Sequence record: PQ471515.1
DNA length: 64,000 bases
Reading direction: 5' to 3' (one strand)
DNA from: Escherichia phage Turkey3
Positions 20,529 to 36,547 of this stretch are shown one piece after another. Under the pieces are notes generated by a model that saw only the letters and a list, made by a program, of their open reading frames with translations, made no database searches and had not been told where the DNA came from. The number at the start of each line of letters is the position of its first letter. Within the stretch, counting starts at the first letter, position 1. A program made the position numbers and the translations under genes.

Positions 20529-20720
20529 ATGTTGATTTATCAATGTGATAACATTCGTGTTATGCAGCATCCCTACTTACAAATCTTTGATGTGCAGCAG
20601 TATATGGAAGGTGATGACCCAAGAACCTATGGTCGTAAGTATGATTACTTCACTGTAAAGCAGTGTCGTAACATCAAAGAAGTACGACAATTAGTTCAAG
20701 AACTTCAAAATAAAGGTTGA
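20529..20720 (+). CDS. hypothetical small protein
   Basis: start moved to MLIYQCDN after GAGGA. Confidence 0.4.
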   Translation: MLIYQCDNIRVMQHPYLQIFDVQQYMEGDDPRTYGRKYDYFTVKQCRNIKEVRQLVQELQNKG

Positions 20721-20747
20721 CTTCGGTCAGCCTTTTTTGTTATAATT
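20714..20747 (+). promoter_or_regulatory. stem-loop + promoter element (PeSL-like): hairpin GGTTGAC-TTCG-GTCAGCC with embedded -35 TTGACT, T-run, -10 TATAAT
   Basis: one of ~10 near-identical copies in this window. Confidence 0.65.
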
Positions 20748-20775
20748 ATTTCATCAAATACTGGGGATTTTAATT

Positions 20776-21216
20776 ATGTACGTATATCGTTTTGAACTTA
20801 AATTCAGTTATATTGAACCTAACTTAGATCCAGCAAAAACAGTAGGTCCGTTCGCACGGTACTCTTCACGATACAGTACTAAAAATGGATTTGACCGTTT
20901 GTGCATGACCACGCCTTCGCAATTCCAACCAGAACCAACTGAAGATGGAATCTATTCAATCAAACGTGGCTGGGCATTTGGCTGTCAGAGTTTGAATGAT
21001 TTGTTTAAGTTCTTTACTATGGACTTGGGTAAATTACATCGTGCAGGGTTTGCTGTATCAGTATATGAAGTTCCTGATAGTCATGTTGACATTGGTCGTA
21101 GTCAGGTTCAGTACTATTGTGGTAGTGCCAATCTGGTTCGTATCATGTCAGTGAAAGAAGCAAAGGATGAGTATCGCCAAAGTAAAAGAGTAATACATGA
21201 GGCTGTATATGGATAA
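20776..21216 (+). CDS. hypothetical protein
   Basis: 146-aa ORF downstream of the element. Confidence 0.55.
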   Translation: MYVYRFELKFSYIEPNLDPAKTVGPFARYSSRYSTKNGFDRLCMTTPSQFQPEPTEDGIYSIKRGWAFGCQSLNDLFKFFTMDLGKLHRAGFAVSVYEVPDSHVDIGRSQVQYYCGSANLVRIMSVKEAKDEYRQSKRVIHEAVYG

Positions 21217-21553
21217 GACTCAAATAGAATTAAAAAAATTTGTTTCGTTTTATCTACCCAATGACCCACGTTGTACACAATATGATGTTGCATATTACAA
21301 TGCATTGACTACACAGTTAATGAAGAAATTCAAACAGTGTTTGACTGTATTCAATGATGATGGTAGACGTAGATATAGAATCATTCCAATGAATGATGAA
21401 AACGATAACTACTTTGACTTTGATGTTGTTTTTCGAGCATACAATGATGATAGAATAAAATTAAATTATGAGCAAATAATGCTTGACCTCAGTGTTATCT
21501 GTGTTATAATTACTCACATAGCCGAACTTGATGGTTTAAAAGAATGGTATTAA
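21209..21553 (+). CDS. hypothetical protein
   Basis: ORF track 21197-21553; start moved to MDKTQ. Confidence 0.45.
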   Translation: MDKTQIELKKFVSFYLPNDPRCTQYDVAYYNALTTQLMKKFKQCLTVFNDDGRRRYRIIPMNDENDNYFDFDVVFRAYNDDRIKLNYEQIMLDLSVICVIITHIAELDGLKEWY

Positions 21554-21567
21554 CTTAGAGGATAATC

Positions 21568-21834
21568 ATGAAGCTTAAATTACAATACAATGGTTTTACT
21601 TTGCGTAACGACACTGAGTTTGTCAATCGTTCACCAGGTGCTGAGTTGTTTTTGCGAGAGATGAACATTCCTTTCGTCATCACTACTGTTGGTGACCGTG
21701 AAGTGCTACAATACGCAGAGCATCCAGTTATTGATGTTCCGTGGTATTCTGAGCATATGTATATGGATATGGCCCGTCGCTACGACTGTAAGTTCGTAGT
21801 TGAAGGTGATAAAATTACAGTCCAATTCAAATAA
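21568..21834 (+). CDS. hypothetical small protein
   Basis: 88 aa, GAGGATA RBS. Confidence 0.5.
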   Translation: MKLKLQYNGFTLRNDTEFVNRSPGAELFLREMNIPFVITTVGDREVLQYAEHPVIDVPWYSEHMYMDMARRYDCKFVVEGDKITVQFK

Positions 21835-21845
21835 GGTAACTTAAA

Positions 21846-33744: not shown

Positions 33745-33754
33745 CACATAAAAA

Positions 33755-33787
33755 GGGTTGACTTCGGTCAGCCCTTTTTGCTATAAT
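33755..33787 (+). promoter_or_regulatory. stem-loop + promoter element (PeSL-like)
   Basis: GGGTTGACTTCGGTCAGCCC-TTTTTGC-TATAAT. Confidence 0.65.
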
Positions 33788-33813
33788 TATTTCATCAACT
33801 CAAGAGGTAATAC

Positions 33814-34056
33814 ATGAAACTATCTTTTATACGATTGGCTGAATTCTTTGGTACTGATGTAATTACTTTACAACAAATTGCAGACAATACTTCATTAAGT
33901 ACACAAGAAGTACTTGACTTAGATGTAATTCAGTGCGATAATACTTCCATCGATTACAAAGAAGGTCTTGTCGAAAAAGATAAGATTCAAGCTAAGATTA
34001 ATGGTGCTGGACGGGTTCAGTACTGGAAAGGAGTTTTAAGTAATGTTAATTTATGA
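33814..34056 (+). CDS. hypothetical small protein
   Basis: 80-aa ORF. Confidence 0.5.
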   Translation: MKLSFIRLAEFFGTDVITLQQIADNTSLSTQEVLDLDVIQCDNTSIDYKEGLVEKDKIQAKINGAGRVQYWKGVLSNVNL

Positions 34057-35458
34057 CGAGCTTGGTGTTGGATACCATTTTACCGATGTTGTGCAATTGG
34101 AGGGTGAATATGTACGCGACGCACGAGAAGACACACCACTTGATAAAATAAAAACACTTAATTCACTAATAATAAAAAATATAATACACATTGAATTATT
34201 ACAAGGATTTGTCGTTGATGGCATAGATGAGTATAATAAAAAAAGATATTCTAAAAAATTTCGACAACCAAAATGTAATTTGAAAATAGCATTTTGGTAT
34301 GATGGTTTATTGTTCATTCAAGGTTATAAACAATTTCTTTCCAACTTAAGTTCAGGAAACTATTGTCCGGGTGAAAAAATATATAATTTAGAAAAAACCA
34401 TTTTATCTGCAAAAAATAAACTATCCGGTGGGTGTAGTATAATAACTGGGAATGGTGAGTGGCTGGGGAGAACAAATACTAAACTTTATGCACTCTGCAC
34501 GAAAACCAATAAACCTTGGGAATTCACCATCGGTACACAATATTCTCAGAATTGTCCTGACTGTAAAAAAAGCAAAAAAACTAATAAAGACTTAGATGTG
34601 TTTTTTGAACAACAATGTATAAAATTAAATGCAAAATTTATTGGTATTTTCATGTATAATGGTGTAGATAATAGTATTGTCAAATCGGTATGTAATTGTT
34701 GTGGTAATGAACGTATGGATTATGGAATAACGTTTCGTGCGGGCAGTAGAAAAAGTTTATGCCCACTTGAATCAAGCAGAGTAGAAAAAATAAAAAAATC
34801 CCAATACTTACAAAATGAAGTTTTGGAAGAAAAAATAAAAACTGCAATGAAAATCCATAATATAAGATTTGATGATTCTAACAAATTTGAACCTGAGAAA
34901 TACGCAAATGTCAAAACTACTATTATAAATTATATTGATTCGAGTGGAACCCCTGGTAGTACATGTCTTTCAAATTTGATTTATAATACAGACAAACGAA
35001 GTATTGGTTCAAAAAACATGACTAATGGTGGTGAGTTGTATACAAATTCATTTGGAAATATGTACAAACTAGGTCACACGACAAAAACAAGTCGTAGGAT
35101 ATACGAACAAAATTTATCCTTCTCCAAAAAAAATATATTATGGAAAAATGAACTAATTTTAAAGTTTCCTGGTGAAAATGGGTATGGTCGAGCGATTTAT
35201 TTTGAAAAAACAATTTTAGATTATGTAAATAATATAATTGATTGGGTGAAAAACGTTCAAAAAACACCAATATTCGCCCGTGGTTGTGTTGACGAAGGTG
35301 ATGGACATACTGAAACATTTTTAAAGATATATGAATCATATTTTAGATATAAATTGAATGAATTGTACTTGACATATAAAGATGAATGGGATATAATTAT
35401 TTTCAAAGATGAAAAGAATTTTATTTCTAATACAAGAGATACTAAAAATGACCAATGA
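34043..35458 (+). CDS. hypothetical Asn/Lys-rich protein with Cys clusters
   Basis: 471 aa; CPDCKKSKK and CNCCGNE clusters; more AT-rich than surroundings. Confidence 0.55.
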   Translation: MLIYDELGVGYHFTDVVQLEGEYVRDAREDTPLDKIKTLNSLIIKNIIHIELLQGFVVDGIDEYNKKRYSKKFRQPKCNLKIAFWYDGLLFIQGYKQFLSNLSSGNYCPGEKIYNLEKTILSAKNKLSGGCSIITGNGEWLGRTNTKLYALCTKTNKPWEFTIGTQYSQNCPDCKKSKKTNKDLDVFFEQQCIKLNAKFIGIFMYNGVDNSIVKSVCNCCGNERMDYGITFRAGSRKSLCPLESSRVEKIKKSQYLQNEVLEEKIKTAMKIHNIRFDDSNKFEPEKYANVKTTIINYIDSSGTPGSTCLSNLIYNTDKRSIGSKNMTNGGELYTNSFGNMYKLGHTTKTSRRIYEQNLSFSKKNILWKNELILKFPGENGYGRAIYFEKTILDYVNNIIDWVKNVQKTPIFARGCVDEGDGHTETFLKIYESYFRYKLNELYLTYKDEWDIIIFKDEKNFISNTRDTKNDQ

Positions 35459-36506
35459 ACAAATTATTGATATTTTAAACAAACTTGGATATGATGAAAT
35501 AACAATTAATGTGGATAAATGTACATATGATGTATTTCATCCTAAAAGAAAAATAATTTATACTGGTATGGATTTAAATAAGATCAACTTTAATACAAAA
35601 GCAATAAAATTTCCACCGTTGGATTATAACACAATAAAATTAAGTTGTGAGAATATTTTCAAAGATAGTGAATGTAAATTTTGTTATTTGGAATATAATG
35701 AAAACAAACCAAATGACACAAAAGTTTTTTATTGTGCACCTAAAAGAAAAAAACCAACCAGTATATATTATAGACATTTGGTGAGTGGTGGTATTCGTAT
35801 TAATGTTGAATGGGATATTGAAGACATCTATGATAATGTCTTGATTAAAATAAAAGATATGGATGGTTTTGATATTGATCATGTTGAATATAATGAAAAA
35901 GAAACTTCAAAAACTATAATTCATTTTAAACACCCAAATAGATTATTAACAGTTAAAAATGAATTTAGATATATAATGAGAGATAATTGGTCATTAAAAG
36001 AACCGCAGATTTCATTAGACGAAATAAATGAGATTGGTAAGAAATTTTCAAAAGAACATCCAAAATATAAGTATCTTGGATGTAAAAGATTCAAAGGTTC
36101 AAAATCGATATTATCGTTTGTTAAAATCGATAATGGAAAAATTTGGAATCCATCATATGAATCAATAGTTTATAGTAATATTAACAGTGATGTTGGTGGA
36201 TATATTGCAAATGATATAAAAAATTTATATATATTTAAAACTGATTCATTTGTTGGAACATTTATATGCAATGAAACAAAATTTAACTTTCATAAAAATG
36301 AAAGGGAGTTTTGGTTGGATGATGGGGAGATTGAGATAATTGGACAATTCAATGAACGATATTCTTTTTTAAAAGGTATTGTAGATACAGTTAATAGTGA
36401 AATAGAAATAGATCATGATTTAGATATTGTTGGATATACGTGTATTAGGAAAATACATAATATTGAATATATACAACAACGTTGTTATGATTTATTCAAT
36501 TTATAA
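35448..36506 (+). CDS. hypothetical Asn/Lys-rich protein
   Basis: ORF track 35409-36506; start moved to MTNEQIIDIL; extremely AT-rich. Confidence 0.5.
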   Translation: MTNEQIIDILNKLGYDEITINVDKCTYDVFHPKRKIIYTGMDLNKINFNTKAIKFPPLDYNTIKLSCENIFKDSECKFCYLEYNENKPNDTKVFYCAPKRKKPTSIYYRHLVSGGIRINVEWDIEDIYDNVLIKIKDMDGFDIDHVEYNEKETSKTIIHFKHPNRLLTVKNEFRYIMRDNWSLKEPQISLDEINEIGKKFSKEHPKYKYLGCKRFKGSKSILSFVKIDNGKIWNPSYESIVYSNINSDVGGYIANDIKNLYIFKTDSFVGTFICNETKFNFHKNEREFWLDDGEIEIIGQFNERYSFLKGIVDTVNSEIEIDHDLDIVGYTCIRKIHNIEYIQQRCYDLFNL

Positions 36507-36514
36507 CAAAAAAA

Positions 36515-36547
36515 GGGTTGACTTCGGTCAGCCCTTTTTGCTATAAT
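36515..36547 (+). promoter_or_regulatory. stem-loop + promoter element (PeSL-like)
   Basis: GGGTTGACTTCGGTCAGCCC-TTTTTGC-TATAAT. Confidence 0.65.

What the first reader, a model, noticed from the sequence alone, without database searches (positions are those of the whole stretch)
20714..36547. About ten copies of a fused stem-loop/early-promoter element flank individual gene cassettes
GGGTTGACTTCGGTCAGCCC-TTTTTGC-TATAAT recurs at 20714, 24307, 25088, 26670, 27351, 31648, 32371, 33755 and 36515, with a terminator-only copy at 12236. The hairpin's 5' arm contains -35 TTGACT and TATAAT lies 17-18 bp downstream, so each copy is both terminator and promoter. Copies bracket single genes or short gene sets such as denV, the tandem-repeat protein, the N-rich pair and the ATPase. 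This matches the promoter-early stem-loop (PeSL) cassettes reported, as I recall, for hyperplastic regions of T4-type phages, where they are proposed to drive modular gene shuffling.
Basis: partly seen in the sequence, partly recalled or inferred. Interest (0 to 1): 0.7.

Follow-up and report, generated by a model that had tools for sequence, protein, structure and literature searches.

The report
Fused terminator-promoter repeats in jumbo coliphage
Ten copies of a roughly 50-base element that both ends one transcript and starts the next separate the early gene cassettes of a giant E. coli phage, and related phages gain, lose or swap genes at the most alike copies; this is the "PeSL" design known from T4-like phages, here found outside that group.

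Summary
GGGTTGACTTCGGTCAGCCC (up to 3 mismatches) occurs 10 times, always on the + strand, only between 12.2 and 36.6 kb; shuffled sequence gives none. The window comes from a 121Q/PBECO4-like jumbo coliphage (genus Asteriusvirus), not a T4-type phage.

Each copy has an A-tract, an 8-bp hairpin with a UUCG loop (-14 to -19.5 kcal/mol) and a T-run. The -35 hexamer TTGACT lies in the 5' arm. In seven copies TGnTATAAT follows after an 18-nt spacer. One copy carries a T4-type late promoter motif, one has a degenerate -10, and one is terminator-only.

Stem variation preserves pairing in 98.7% of cells, with GC to AU double changes.

Against seven close relatives, 6 of 14 breakpoints fall inside elements (2.5% expected by length). 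BF17 and fEgEco12 differ by one 2.76-kb cassette whose junction is an in-register crossover within the element core. All such turnover lies in one hotspot (31.5-36.5 kb), where three copies share 41-51 identical bases and the swapped genes look endonuclease-like. Homing may therefore contribute.

This is a new member of a known kind (PeSL). The same 20-base hairpin plus -10 recurs in several unrelated phage lineages.

The parts
12231..12263 (+). Terminator-only copy: A-tract, hairpin 12236-12255, T8; no -10. It starts 7 nt after the stop codon of the phage sigma-factor gene (11263-12228).
   Evidence: (-18.2 kcal/mol)
20709..20746 (+). Composite element: hairpin 20714-20733 (AGG...CCT variant, compensatory A-T outer pair); -35 TTGACT 20717; 18-nt spacer; TGTTATAAT ending at 20746. 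The upstream gene's TGA stop (20718-20720) lies inside TTGAC.
   Evidence: (-14.1)
24303..24340 (+). Composite element: hairpin 24308-24327 (UUCA loop), TTGACT-18-TATAAT without TG. It precedes a 37-aa ORF (24388-24501) and the 87- and 98-aa genes.
   Evidence: (-16.0)
25083..25126 (+). Hairpin 25088-25107 followed by TATACT (17-nt spacer), overlapping TATAAATA at 25119-25126 (T4-type late promoter motif). It lies upstream of the 503-aa virion structural gene 25148-26659, so this copy is a terminator plus a probable late promoter.
   Evidence: (-14.4)
26664..26701 (+). Hairpin 26669-26688, T7, then a degenerate -10 (TAAATA). Mainly a terminator. The sequence at this position is identical in 121Q.
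   Evidence: (-15.6)
27346..27383 (+). Composite element: hairpin 27351-27370 (3' arm GTCGG, a U.G pair), TTGACT-18-TGCTATAAT. The downstream 137-aa gene starts at 27410.
   Evidence: (-18.0)
31643..31680 (+). Composite element upstream of denV (31709-32146). Its left edge (31640-31643) is an indel breakpoint against BF17, CMSTMSU, Ecwhy_1 and JNE01. An HNH-endonuclease remnant lies just upstream.
   Evidence: (-17.4)
32366..32403 (+). Composite element upstream of the 432-aa repeat/endonuclease-like gene (32446-33744). Homology to WPEC3 and CMSTMSU ends at 32427, its right edge. The TGA stop of the 71-aa ORF (32375-32377) lies inside TTGAC.
   Evidence: (-16.7)
33750..33787 (+). Composite element upstream of the 80-aa gene (33814-34056). 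Homology to BF17, vB_Ec-M-J, 121Q, G17, JNE01 and SD-15_S21 resumes at 33752. It shares a 51-bp perfect run with copy 36515 and a 41-bp run with copy 32371.
   Evidence: (-19.5)
36510..36547 (+). Composite element upstream of the conserved 256-aa AAA ATPase gene (36576-37346). All eight relatives aligned resume homology at 36500-36512, each with a different upstream gene.
   Evidence: (-19.0)
32404..33749 (+). Cassette 1 of the hotspot: a 432-aa protein made of five ~65-aa tandem repeats plus a C-terminal region with a weak MUG113 (GIY-YIG-like) match; PHROG 559/681 'HNH endonuclease/endonuclease'. It is absent from BF17, fEgEco12, vB_Ec-M-J and 121Q, and rearranged in WPEC5.
33788..36509 (+). 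Cassette 2 of the hotspot: 80-aa (PHROG 34150), 471-aa and 365-aa genes. It is present in BF17 and absent from fEgEco12, which otherwise matches BF17 here. In other relatives the two large genes are replaced.

Best explanation
These are PeSL-type composite regulatory cassettes of about 70 bp, running from the upstream stop codon to the next ATG, in the early region of an Asteriusvirus jumbo coliphage. In RNA made from upstream, the A-tract, the 8-bp UUCG hairpin and the U-run form an intrinsic terminator. In DNA the same bases carry the -35 hexamer (TTGACT, in the 5' arm), and TGnTATAAT lies 18 nt downstream. Host sigma-70 RNA polymerase would therefore restart about 7 nt past the -10 (inferred +1 at the A of TTTCATC), giving a roughly 20-nt leader with a GAGG ribosome-binding site. 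Each cassette thus becomes its own early transcription unit and works wherever it lands. Because the copies are direct repeats, the most alike ones (41-51 identical bases at 32371, 33755 and 36515) also act as crossover sites through which cassettes are lost, gained or exchanged between co-infecting relatives. Shown here: the repeats, the hairpin and its conservation of pairing, the promoter consensus, the breakpoint enrichment and one in-register junction. Inferred: actual termination, initiation by host sigma-70, early timing, and the direction and mechanism of recombination.
For: - Ten copies against 0 in shuffles, all on the coding strand and all intergenic.
- Hairpins fold at -14 to -19.5 kcal/mol, z-scores -4.2 to -6.3.
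- Across 49 distinct copies, 98.7% of cells in the 8-bp stem pair. The outer pair switches GC to AU on both sides in 12 sequences, and 3'-arm changes are confined to A/G opposite T, which suits RNA pairing.
- Seven copies score 11 of 12 against the sigma-70 consensus, six of them with TG before the -10.
- The hairpin-to-ATG distance is 39-42 nt in seven of the nine promoter-bearing copies (55 nt at 32371, 60 nt at 24308).
- About 20 near-consensus sigma-70 promoters lie on the + strand between 6.4 and 36.5 kb, and almost none beyond.
- Against seven relatives at 94% identity or more, 6 of 14 unique breakpoints lie in element windows, versus 2.5% expected by length (P about 7e-7) and 15% under a gene-junction null (P about 0.01).
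- fEgEco12's single element equals BF17's left flank, the identical 33-bp core and BF17's right flank, so the two phages differ by one 2,760-bp cassette.
- In the 13 genomes compared (window plus 12 relatives), at least six different upstream genes meet the ATPase gene at this element.
- Only the three hotspot copies share perfect runs of 41 bases or more.
- A second promoter repeat family shows the same kind of in-register deletion.
- The architecture matches the published PeSL description, whose promoter and terminator activities were shown by reporter assays in RB49/phi1.
- KVP40, a phage in which PeSLs were described, carries a near-identical element.
- The same hairpins were independently predicted as terminators in G17 and CBB.
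Against: - No transcript ends or reporter data exist for this phage group.
- The 18-nt spacer is one base longer than optimal.
- Three of the ten copies lack an early -10.
- Eight of the 14 close-relative breakpoints are not in elements (32112 inside denV, 33410 inside the 432-aa gene, 34046 at the end of the 80-aa gene, and others).
- The 121Q-type absence of the 87- and 98-aa genes touches an element on one side only.
- The six upstream copies keep position-specific variants across the genus, so they are not visibly recombining.
- The hotspot's variable genes are endonuclease-like, which offers another engine for turnover.
- The phage encodes its own sigma factor, so recognition by host sigma-70 is assumed, not shown.
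Confidence: 0.75

Rival explanations
1. The elements are ordinary early-gene boundaries (terminator plus promoter) and play no special part in shuffling. Turnover at the hotspot would be driven by free-standing homing-endonuclease-like genes and by general homologous recombination using whatever flanking homology exists, with the elements being simply the nearest conserved sequence.
For: - The 432-aa protein matches PHROG 559/681 'HNH endonuclease/endonuclease' at about 1e-78 and has a weak C-terminal MUG113 (GIY-YIG-like) match.
- In relatives the variable genes at this locus are annotated as endonuclease or HNH endonuclease, or carry CapR domains.
- An HNH remnant lies at 31567-31704 where relatives have an intact HNH gene.
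- Recurrent breakpoints sit at the 3' end of the 80-aa gene (34031-34047) and inside denV (32112), not in elements.
- The upstream copies are positionally stable.
Against: - The BF17/fEgEco12 difference is an exact in-register crossover inside the element, with no other change.
- The non-endonuclease 92-aa ORF is lost by the same route between two promoter repeats.
- Breakpoints are enriched at elements even against a gene-junction null.
- No catalytic endonuclease domain reached a curated threshold in the window's cassette proteins.
- This rival concerns only the recombination role; it accepts the regulatory anatomy.
Confidence: 0.3
2. The inverted repeat is chiefly a DNA operator. A dimeric phage or host protein would bind the palindrome over the -35 to shut off early promoters, and the hairpin would not act as an RNA terminator.
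For: The repeat overlaps the -35 exactly, which is where a repressor would act, and it is strongly conserved.
Against: - The commonest form is not a true DNA palindrome: TTGAC faces GTCAG, a G.U wobble in RNA but a mismatch in a DNA palindrome.
- Variation is confined to A/G opposite T, as expected for RNA pairing.
- A UUCG loop flanked by an A-tract and a T-run is classical terminator anatomy.
- Copy 12236 keeps the hairpin and T8 with no promoter.
- The same 20-base hairpin serves as an A-tract/T-run terminator-like site in Bacteroidetes and Clostridia genomes.
Confidence: 0.07
3. The promoters are read by the phage-encoded sigma factor (11263-12228) rather than by host sigma-70, so the cassettes would be middle rather than early units.
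For: The phage sigma has Sigma70 regions 2 and 3, which contact the -10 and the extended -10 TG. Six of the seven promoters have TG.
Against: - The hexamers match the E. coli sigma-70 consensus at 11 of 12 positions.
- In the related CBB and PA5oct phages, such RpoD-like promoters are assigned to early regions or to host polymerase.
- The sigma gene itself lies in this promoter-rich region.
- The same element occurs in phages such as KVP40, where the PeSL promoters are described as early sigma-70-like.
Confidence: 0.1

Closest known systems
PeSL (promoter-early stem-loop) cassettes of T4-like phages RB49/phi1 (Arbiol et al. 2010, PMC2839356)
   Same: A strong sigma-70-like promoter fused to a stem-loop terminator, with an A/T-rich leader next to the upstream stop codon and SD/ATG at the 3' end. 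Copies are repeated, same-strand and intergenic among ORFans in a variable region. They are associated with indels between near-identical phages, and a single chimeric element marks the empty site.
   Different: The host phage is an Asteriusvirus jumbo phage outside Straboviridae. There are about 10 copies in one 25-kb region rather than about 50 spread over several hyperplastic regions. All copies use one hairpin placed over the -35, whereas RB49/phi1 have five placements and varied G/C stems. The spacer is 18 nt with an extended -10. Mini-circles and promoter/terminator activity are untested here.
PeSLs of Vibrio phages nt-1/KVP40 (Comeau et al. 2014, PMC4122927)
   Same: The published stem-loop consensus A3-4 G3-loop-C3 T3-4 and the -10 TAWWAT fit. 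KVP40 at 21137 reads AAAAGGGTTGACTGCGGTCAGCCCTTTCGCGTATTATAGCTTCATCAAC, about 81% identical to the window element over 52 nt, including the downstream TTCATCAAC.
   Different: The printed -35 consensus (TTGYVH) differs from TTGACT at position 4. The figures were not available, so I could not confirm that this KVP40 site is one of the published PeSLs. The loop is UGCG rather than UUCG. Host and phage family differ.
Terminator and RpoD-like promoter predictions in Rak2-like jumbo phages (CBB, Buttimer et al. 2017, PMC5259590; the G17 GenBank record)
   Same: The identical hairpin GGGTTGACTTCGGTCAGCCC is listed as a rho-independent terminator in CBB Table S8 and annotated as 'terminator' at the orthologous G17 sites. 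RpoD-like promoters with UP-like elements are reported in the CBB early region.
   Different: The G17 record annotates only the terminator, and the CBB study lists terminators and promoters in separate tables. I found no statement that the two form one unit, no use of the term PeSL, and no link to cassette polymorphism.
Free-standing homing endonuclease genes of T4-like phages (seg/mob type)
   Same: Endonuclease-like genes that are present or absent between conserved genes, each with its own promoter, concentrated at one locus.
   Different: This describes the cargo, not the repeat. No catalytic domain passes threshold in the window's cassette proteins, and the clean junctions lie inside the repeated element rather than at a cleavage-site-defined position.

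Membership tests
PeSL (promoter-early stem-loop cassette) | Sigma-70-like early promoter (-35, about 17 nt, -10) | tested here: met
   Seven copies have TTGACT-18 nt-TATAAT (11 of 12), six of them with TG before the -10. Copy 25088 scores 10 of 12. Copies 26669 and 12236 lack a -10 and correspond to the 'degraded/half PeSLs' of the 2014 paper.
PeSL (promoter-early stem-loop cassette) | Stable stem-loop within or next to the promoter that can act as a terminator or attenuator | tested here: met
   An 8-bp stem with a UUCG loop overlaps the -35; -14 to -19.5 kcal/mol, z -4.2 to -6.3. Pairing holds in 98.7% of cells, with compensatory changes. An A-tract and a T-run flank it. Termination itself was not measured.
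PeSL (promoter-early stem-loop cassette) | A/T-rich leader with the upstream stop codon, and Shine-Dalgarno plus start codon at the 3' end | tested here: met
   The upstream stop codon lies 7-21 nt before the hairpin in seven of ten copies, inside TTGAC in two, and 93 nt away at 31648. The ATG lies 39-42 nt after the hairpin in seven of nine, preceded by GAGG/GGAG.
PeSL (promoter-early stem-loop cassette) | Repeated, preferentially in a variable region rich in small ORFans | tested here: met
   All ten copies lie in 12.2-36.6 kb of the window. In 121Q, the three exact copies in the whole 348.5-kb genome are the hotspot ones. BLAST places per genome (5-9) do not exceed the copies seen in this locus. 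Whole genomes were not scanned with the profile.
PeSL (promoter-early stem-loop cassette) | Indels and replacements between closely related phages lie at or next to the elements | tested here: met
   Six of 14 unique breakpoints against seven close relatives lie in element windows, versus 2.5% expected by length and 15% by junction count. At least 10 arrangements occur between denV and the ATPase gene in 13 genomes.
PeSL (promoter-early stem-loop cassette) | Recombination between two flanking elements removes or inserts the cassette, leaving one chimeric element | tested here: met
   BF17 vs fEgEco12: a 2,760-bp cassette; the single element has the left flank of one copy and the right flank of the other around an identical 33-bp core. 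This is one clean case. Other events are one-sided.
PeSL (promoter-early stem-loop cassette) | Promoter and terminator activity in reporter assays; encapsidated mini-circles | not testable with these tools
   Shown experimentally only for RB49/phi1. No data exist for Asteriusvirus.
PeSL (promoter-early stem-loop cassette) | Host phage is a T4-like myovirus (the range in which PeSLs were described) | tested here: not met
   The window is 99% identical to Asteriusvirus phages. The genus is placed directly under Caudoviricetes, not in Straboviridae. This is a range limit of the published work, not a structural feature of the element.
Free-standing homing endonuclease gene cassette | Cargo encodes a recognisable homing endonuclease catalytic domain | tested here: inconclusive
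   The 432-aa protein matches PHROG 559/681 at about 1e-78. In Pfam, only a sub-threshold MUG113 match was found (E 0.0035, 18.3 bits against a cutoff of 22.3). The 471- and 365-aa proteins have no family match.

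The most novel reading that the evidence does not exclude
One specific cassette (A-tract, GGGTTGACTTCGGTCAGCCC, T4-5, G, then a -10 hexamer) may be a horizontally travelling regulatory module shared by unrelated phage lineages. It occurs in Rak2-like jumbo phages (Asteriusvirus, Alcyoneusvirus, Mimasvirus), T4-like Vibrio and Aeromonas phages, Vequintavirinae and even Brochothrix phage A9. All 47 exact occurrences in IMG/VR keep the A-rich leader, and nearly all keep a T-run and a -10-like hexamer at the same spacing (a few have a short or interrupted T-run or a weak hexamer). 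Some copies also share downstream bases (TTCATCGAAACGA) across families. If this reflects transfer rather than convergence, promoter-terminator cassettes move between phage families, possibly carrying genes with them.
Probability: 0.3. Interest if true: 0.7.

Novelty: new member of a known kind. Interest (0 to 1): 0.45.

Why it matters
PeSLs were proposed as the device that lets T4-like phages shuffle accessory genes safely, because every cassette carries its own stop and start signals. Finding the same device, with the same comparative signature, in 350-385-kb Asteriusvirus phages shows that the design is not limited to T4-like phages. It also gives a concrete, testable account of how the large ORFan-rich early regions of jumbo phages turn over.

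In practical terms, it marks the transcription-unit boundaries of an otherwise unannotated early region. It identifies a hotspot (denV to ATPase) where natural isolates already carry at least ten different gene sets. This makes the hotspot a likely permissive site for engineering therapeutic jumbo phages, though that has not been tested.

The recurrence of one exact 20-base hairpin-promoter across phage families raises a sharper question: is a regulatory cassette itself mobile, or is this a convergent optimum?

Tried and rejected
- **Terminator scan.** The consensus scan flagged only 3 of the 10 hairpins. It extends the stem into the A/T tracts and then finds too few T's left. I treated this as a tool artefact and folded each copy instead.
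- **Known RNA genes.** Rfam at gathering threshold over the whole window and tRNA search found nothing. A permissive scan of 12150-12950 gave only a sub-threshold match to the hairpin itself.
- **The 24308-25088 interval.** It first looked like a cassette bounded by two elements and missing from 121Q-type phages. Alignment showed that the left breakpoint lies after the stop codon of the gp200 homologue, not in an element. I count it as one-sided.
- **All-pairs breakpoint census.** Across 13 genomes, 91 of 566 breakpoints fall in element windows against 2.2% expected by length. Many 'breakpoints' with distant relatives are only divergence, so I rely on the close-relative subset.
- **Cargo proteins.** Pfam gave nothing for the 471- and 365-aa proteins, even at E up to 1.
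- **Literature.** I found no paper applying PeSL to Rak2-like or Asteriusvirus phages. The GAP32 paper is not in the library.
- **Transfer versus convergence.** The exact 20-mer occurs 9 times in 100,044 bacterial genomes (about 0.5 expected), in Bacteroidetes, Clostridia, Bdellovibrio and Vibrio, at terminator-like sites. Convergence on this hairpin is therefore possible, and I lowered the transfer reading accordingly.
- **Rejected outright.** Chance (0 of 100 shuffles) and assembly artefact (the same sites appear in 12 independent genomes).

Full report
**Observation**

Searching for GGGTTGACTTCGGTCAGCCC with up to three mismatches gives ten matches. All are on the + strand: 12236, 20714, 24308, 25088, 26669, 27351, 31648, 32371, 33755 and 36515. 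One hundred dinucleotide-preserving shuffles gave none. A profile built from nine copies recovers the same ten sites and nothing in 1-12 kb or 37-64 kb.

**Source**

The window is 99% identical to Escherichia phages WPEC5, fEgEco12, vB_Ec-M-J, BF17 and others, and 83-90% identical to 121Q, PBECO4, G17 and slurp01. These are 350-385-kb jumbo phages of the genus Asteriusvirus. The genus sits directly under Caudoviricetes, not in the T4 family Straboviridae. No relative covers more than 78% of the 17-kb query, which already signals indels.

**Anatomy**

Each copy has the same basic layout:
- It begins with an A-rich tract.
- An 8-bp stem GGGTTGAC/GTCAGCCC follows, with one U.G pair and a UUCG loop.
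- A T-run comes next.

The ten hairpins fold at -14.1 to -19.5 kcal/mol, with z-scores of -4.2 to -6.3.

The 5' arm contains TTGACT. In seven copies TATAAT follows after an 18-nt spacer, an 11 of 12 match to the sigma-70 consensus. Six of the seven have TG immediately before the -10, making an extended -10; copy 24308 has CG there.

The element is tightly packed between genes:
- The upstream stop codon lies 7-21 nt before the hairpin in seven copies.
- It lies inside TTGAC (as TGA) at 20718 and 32375.
- It lies 93 nt upstream at 31648.
- The next ATG lies 39-42 nt after the hairpin in seven of the nine promoter-bearing copies, preceded by GAGG or GGAG. The distance is 55 nt at 32371 and 60 nt at 24308.

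The whole stop-to-start unit is therefore about 70 bp.

Three copies depart from this pattern:
- Copy 12236 has T8 and no -10. It sits 7 nt after the phage sigma-factor gene (Sigma70 regions 2 and 3).
- Copy 26669 has only TAAATA where the -10 should be.
- Copy 25088 has TATACT overlapping TATAAATA, the T4-type late promoter motif. That motif occurs only twice in 64 kb, each time just upstream of a virion structural gene.

**Is the hairpin under selection?**

I collected 49 distinct versions from 13 Asteriusvirus genomes and six other phages.
- The 8-bp stem pairs in 98.7% of cells.
- The outer pair changes on both sides (GC to AU) in 12 sequences.
- The -35 arm is invariant.
- The 3' arm varies only A/G opposite T, and once C to T opposite G.

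Tolerance of wobble pairs points to RNA pairing, meaning a terminator, rather than a DNA palindrome bound by a protein.

**Context**

About 20 near-consensus sigma-70 promoters lie on the + strand between 6.4 and 36.5 kb, and almost none beyond. Seven of them are the hairpin type. Four belong to a second repeat family without a hairpin (TTGACA...AGTACTGTATAATGTTTAT), at 14627, 14975, 18938 and 29804. The genes are mostly small ORFans. From 39.9 kb onward the window holds a minus-strand array of RCC1-like paralogues.

**Comparison with relatives**

I fetched the homologous region from 12 Asteriusvirus genomes.

Against the seven close relatives (94% identity or more) there are 14 unique breakpoints in 10-39.9 kb of the window.
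- Six lie within -15 to +60 of a hairpin start.
- This compares with 2.5% expected by length (P about 7e-7) and 15% if breakpoints fell at random gene junctions (P about 0.01).
- Two more breakpoints (14666, 14997) lie in the second promoter family. Four relatives lack the 92-aa ORF between two such promoters and carry a single chimeric promoter joined within the shared GTATAATGTTTATATCAAA.

The clearest case is BF17 against fEgEco12.
- BF17 has denV, an element, the 80+471+365-aa cassette, a second element, then the ATPase gene.
- fEgEco12 has denV, one element, then the ATPase gene.
- That one element carries BF17's left upstream flank, the identical 33-bp core, and BF17's right downstream flank.

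This is the topology drawn for PeSL excision or insertion in Arbiol et al. 2010.

Other features of the hotspot:
- All eight relatives aligned resume homology at 36500-36512, each with a different upstream gene.
- Six relatives resume homology at 33752.
- Two relatives lose homology at 32427.
- Between denV and the ATPase gene, the 13 genomes show at least 10 arrangements.
- Only the three hotspot copies share long perfect runs (41-51 bases). The other pairs share 10-26.

**Limits**

- Eight of the 14 close-relative breakpoints are not in elements. Examples are 32112 inside denV, 33410 inside the 432-aa gene, and 34046 at the end of the 80-aa gene.
- The 121Q-type absence of the 87- and 98-aa genes touches an element on one side only.
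- The six upstream copies keep position-specific variants across the genus and look static.
- The cargo at the hotspot looks endonuclease-like:
  - The 432-aa protein has five ~65-aa repeats plus a C-terminal region. It matches PHROG 559/681 'HNH endonuclease/endonuclease' at about 1e-78.
  - That C-terminal region gives a sub-threshold MUG113 match in Pfam.
  - Relatives carry annotated HNH or other endonuclease genes, or CapR-domain proteins, at the same place.

Homing, or simply recombination through any flanking homology, may therefore account for part of the turnover. The elements could then be convenient homology arms rather than the cause.

**Comparison with what is known**

The PeSL definition has these parts: a sigma-70-like early promoter; a stem-loop that may overlap the -35; an A/T-rich leader with the upstream stop codon; SD/ATG at the 3' end; a location in hyperplastic regions next to ORFans; and association with indels. 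Every feature I could test is met.

The published nt-1/KVP40 stem-loop consensus (A3-4 G3-loop-C3 T3-4) and -10 (TAWWAT) fit. KVP40 carries AAAAGGGTTGACTGCGGTCAGCCCTTTCGCGTATTATAGCTTCATCAAC at 21137.

In Rak2-like phages the two halves have been noted only separately:
- The G17 record annotates the orthologous hairpins as ARNold terminators.
- CBB's Table S8 lists the identical hairpin as a terminator, and its text reports RpoD-like promoters in the early region.

I found no paper that joins the two halves or uses the PeSL concept for these phages. The finding is therefore a new member of a known kind.

**Wider distribution**

The 60-nt element finds 173 phage records by BLAST. Asteriusvirus genomes hold 5-9 places each, no more than the copies seen in this one locus.

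The exact 20-mer occurs 47 times in about 20 IMG/VR genomes:
- Rak2-like jumbo phages, including GAP32, CBB and 121Q. In 121Q the three exact copies are the hotspot ones.
- T4-like Aeromonas phage 65 and Vibrio VH7D.
- Contigs of about 152 kb that resemble Vequintavirinae.
- Brochothrix phage A9.
- Several metagenomic contigs.

Every occurrence has an A-rich leader, and nearly all have a T-run and a -10-like hexamer at the same spacing. A few have a short or interrupted T-run or a weak hexamer. Some copies share downstream bases across families. For example, TTCATCGAAACGA occurs both in Klebsiella phage KaOmega and in window copy 31648.

In 100,044 bacterial genomes the 20-mer occurs nine times, against about 0.5 expected. 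These are terminator-like sites in Bacteroidetes, Clostridia, Bdellovibrio and Vibrio. Convergence on this hairpin therefore cannot be excluded, and I give the horizontal-transfer reading a probability of 0.3.

**Verdict**

- The phage is a jumbo Asteriusvirus, not a T4-type phage.
- Seven of the ten copies, not all, are full terminator-plus-early-promoter units.
- Shuffling is documented mainly at one hotspot.
- Endonuclease-like cargo offers a partial alternative engine for that shuffling.

Function as terminator and promoter is inferred from sequence and from experiments on RB49/phi1. It has not been shown for this phage.

Noticed in passing
window 14627-15003: A second repeated early-promoter family without a hairpin (TTGACA..AGTACTGTATAATGTTTATATCAA; further copies at 18938 and 29804). 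The 92-aa ORF 14700-14978 between two copies is missing from fEgEco12, CMSTMSU, Ecwhy_1 and WPEC3. These carry one chimeric promoter joined in the shared 19-bp GTATAATGTTTATATCAAA.
   Followed up: yes
window 23877-23884 and 25119-25126: TATAAATA (T4-type late promoter motif) occurs only twice in 64 kb. Each copy lies just upstream of a virion structural gene (23917-24300; 25148-26659) embedded in the early region. The second copy is fused to hairpin copy 25088.
   Followed up: partly
window 39890-60210, minus strand: A tandem array of about 17 paralogous genes of 300-460 aa, annotated in relatives as RCC1-like / regulator of chromosome condensation / ATS1. Copy number differs between relatives (for example window 42924-46587 against fEgEco12).
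   Followed up: no
window 11263-12893: A phage-encoded sigma factor (Sigma70 regions 2 and 3) ends 7 nt before the terminator-only copy. A 665-bp stretch without convincing ORFs follows (12229-12893). It is conserved in relatives and has no Rfam or tRNA match.
   Followed up: partly
window 33814-34056: An 80-aa gene (PHROG 34150, 92-97% identical across the genus) always sits directly after an element. It is followed by a different large gene in most relatives, with recurrent breakpoints at its 3' end (34031-34047). It looks like a fixed left arm for exchange of the downstream gene.
   Followed up: partly
window 31567-31704 and 32112-32377: A 45-aa ORF reading across element 31648 is the remnant of a 137-aa HNH endonuclease gene that is intact in fEgEco12, vB_Ec-M-J and WPEC3. 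denV exists in two C-terminal forms (145 aa plus a separate 71-aa ORF here; 171 aa in others), with the switch at 32112.
   Followed up: partly
window 20718-20720 and 32375-32377: The TGA stop codon of the upstream gene is the TGA inside the TTGAC -35 hexamer of the hairpin. Coding sequence, terminator stem and promoter therefore overlap on the same bases.
   Followed up: yes
L016 (CBB), L018 (phiKp_21), L026, L038, L046 (IMG/VR): In CBB-like and Klebsiella jumbo phages the same element is followed by a conserved sequence (cattggcagata...cccattgggtgcgg) instead of a ribosome-binding site and ATG. It may be a small structured RNA driven by the element.
   Followed up: no
L054-L062 (bacterial genomes): The exact 20-base hairpin occurs nine times in 100,044 bacterial genomes (about 0.5 expected). 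These are A-tract/T-run terminator-like sites in Bacteroidetes, Clostridia, Bdellovibrio and Vibrio, and two of them have a TATAAT-like hexamer downstream.
   Followed up: partly
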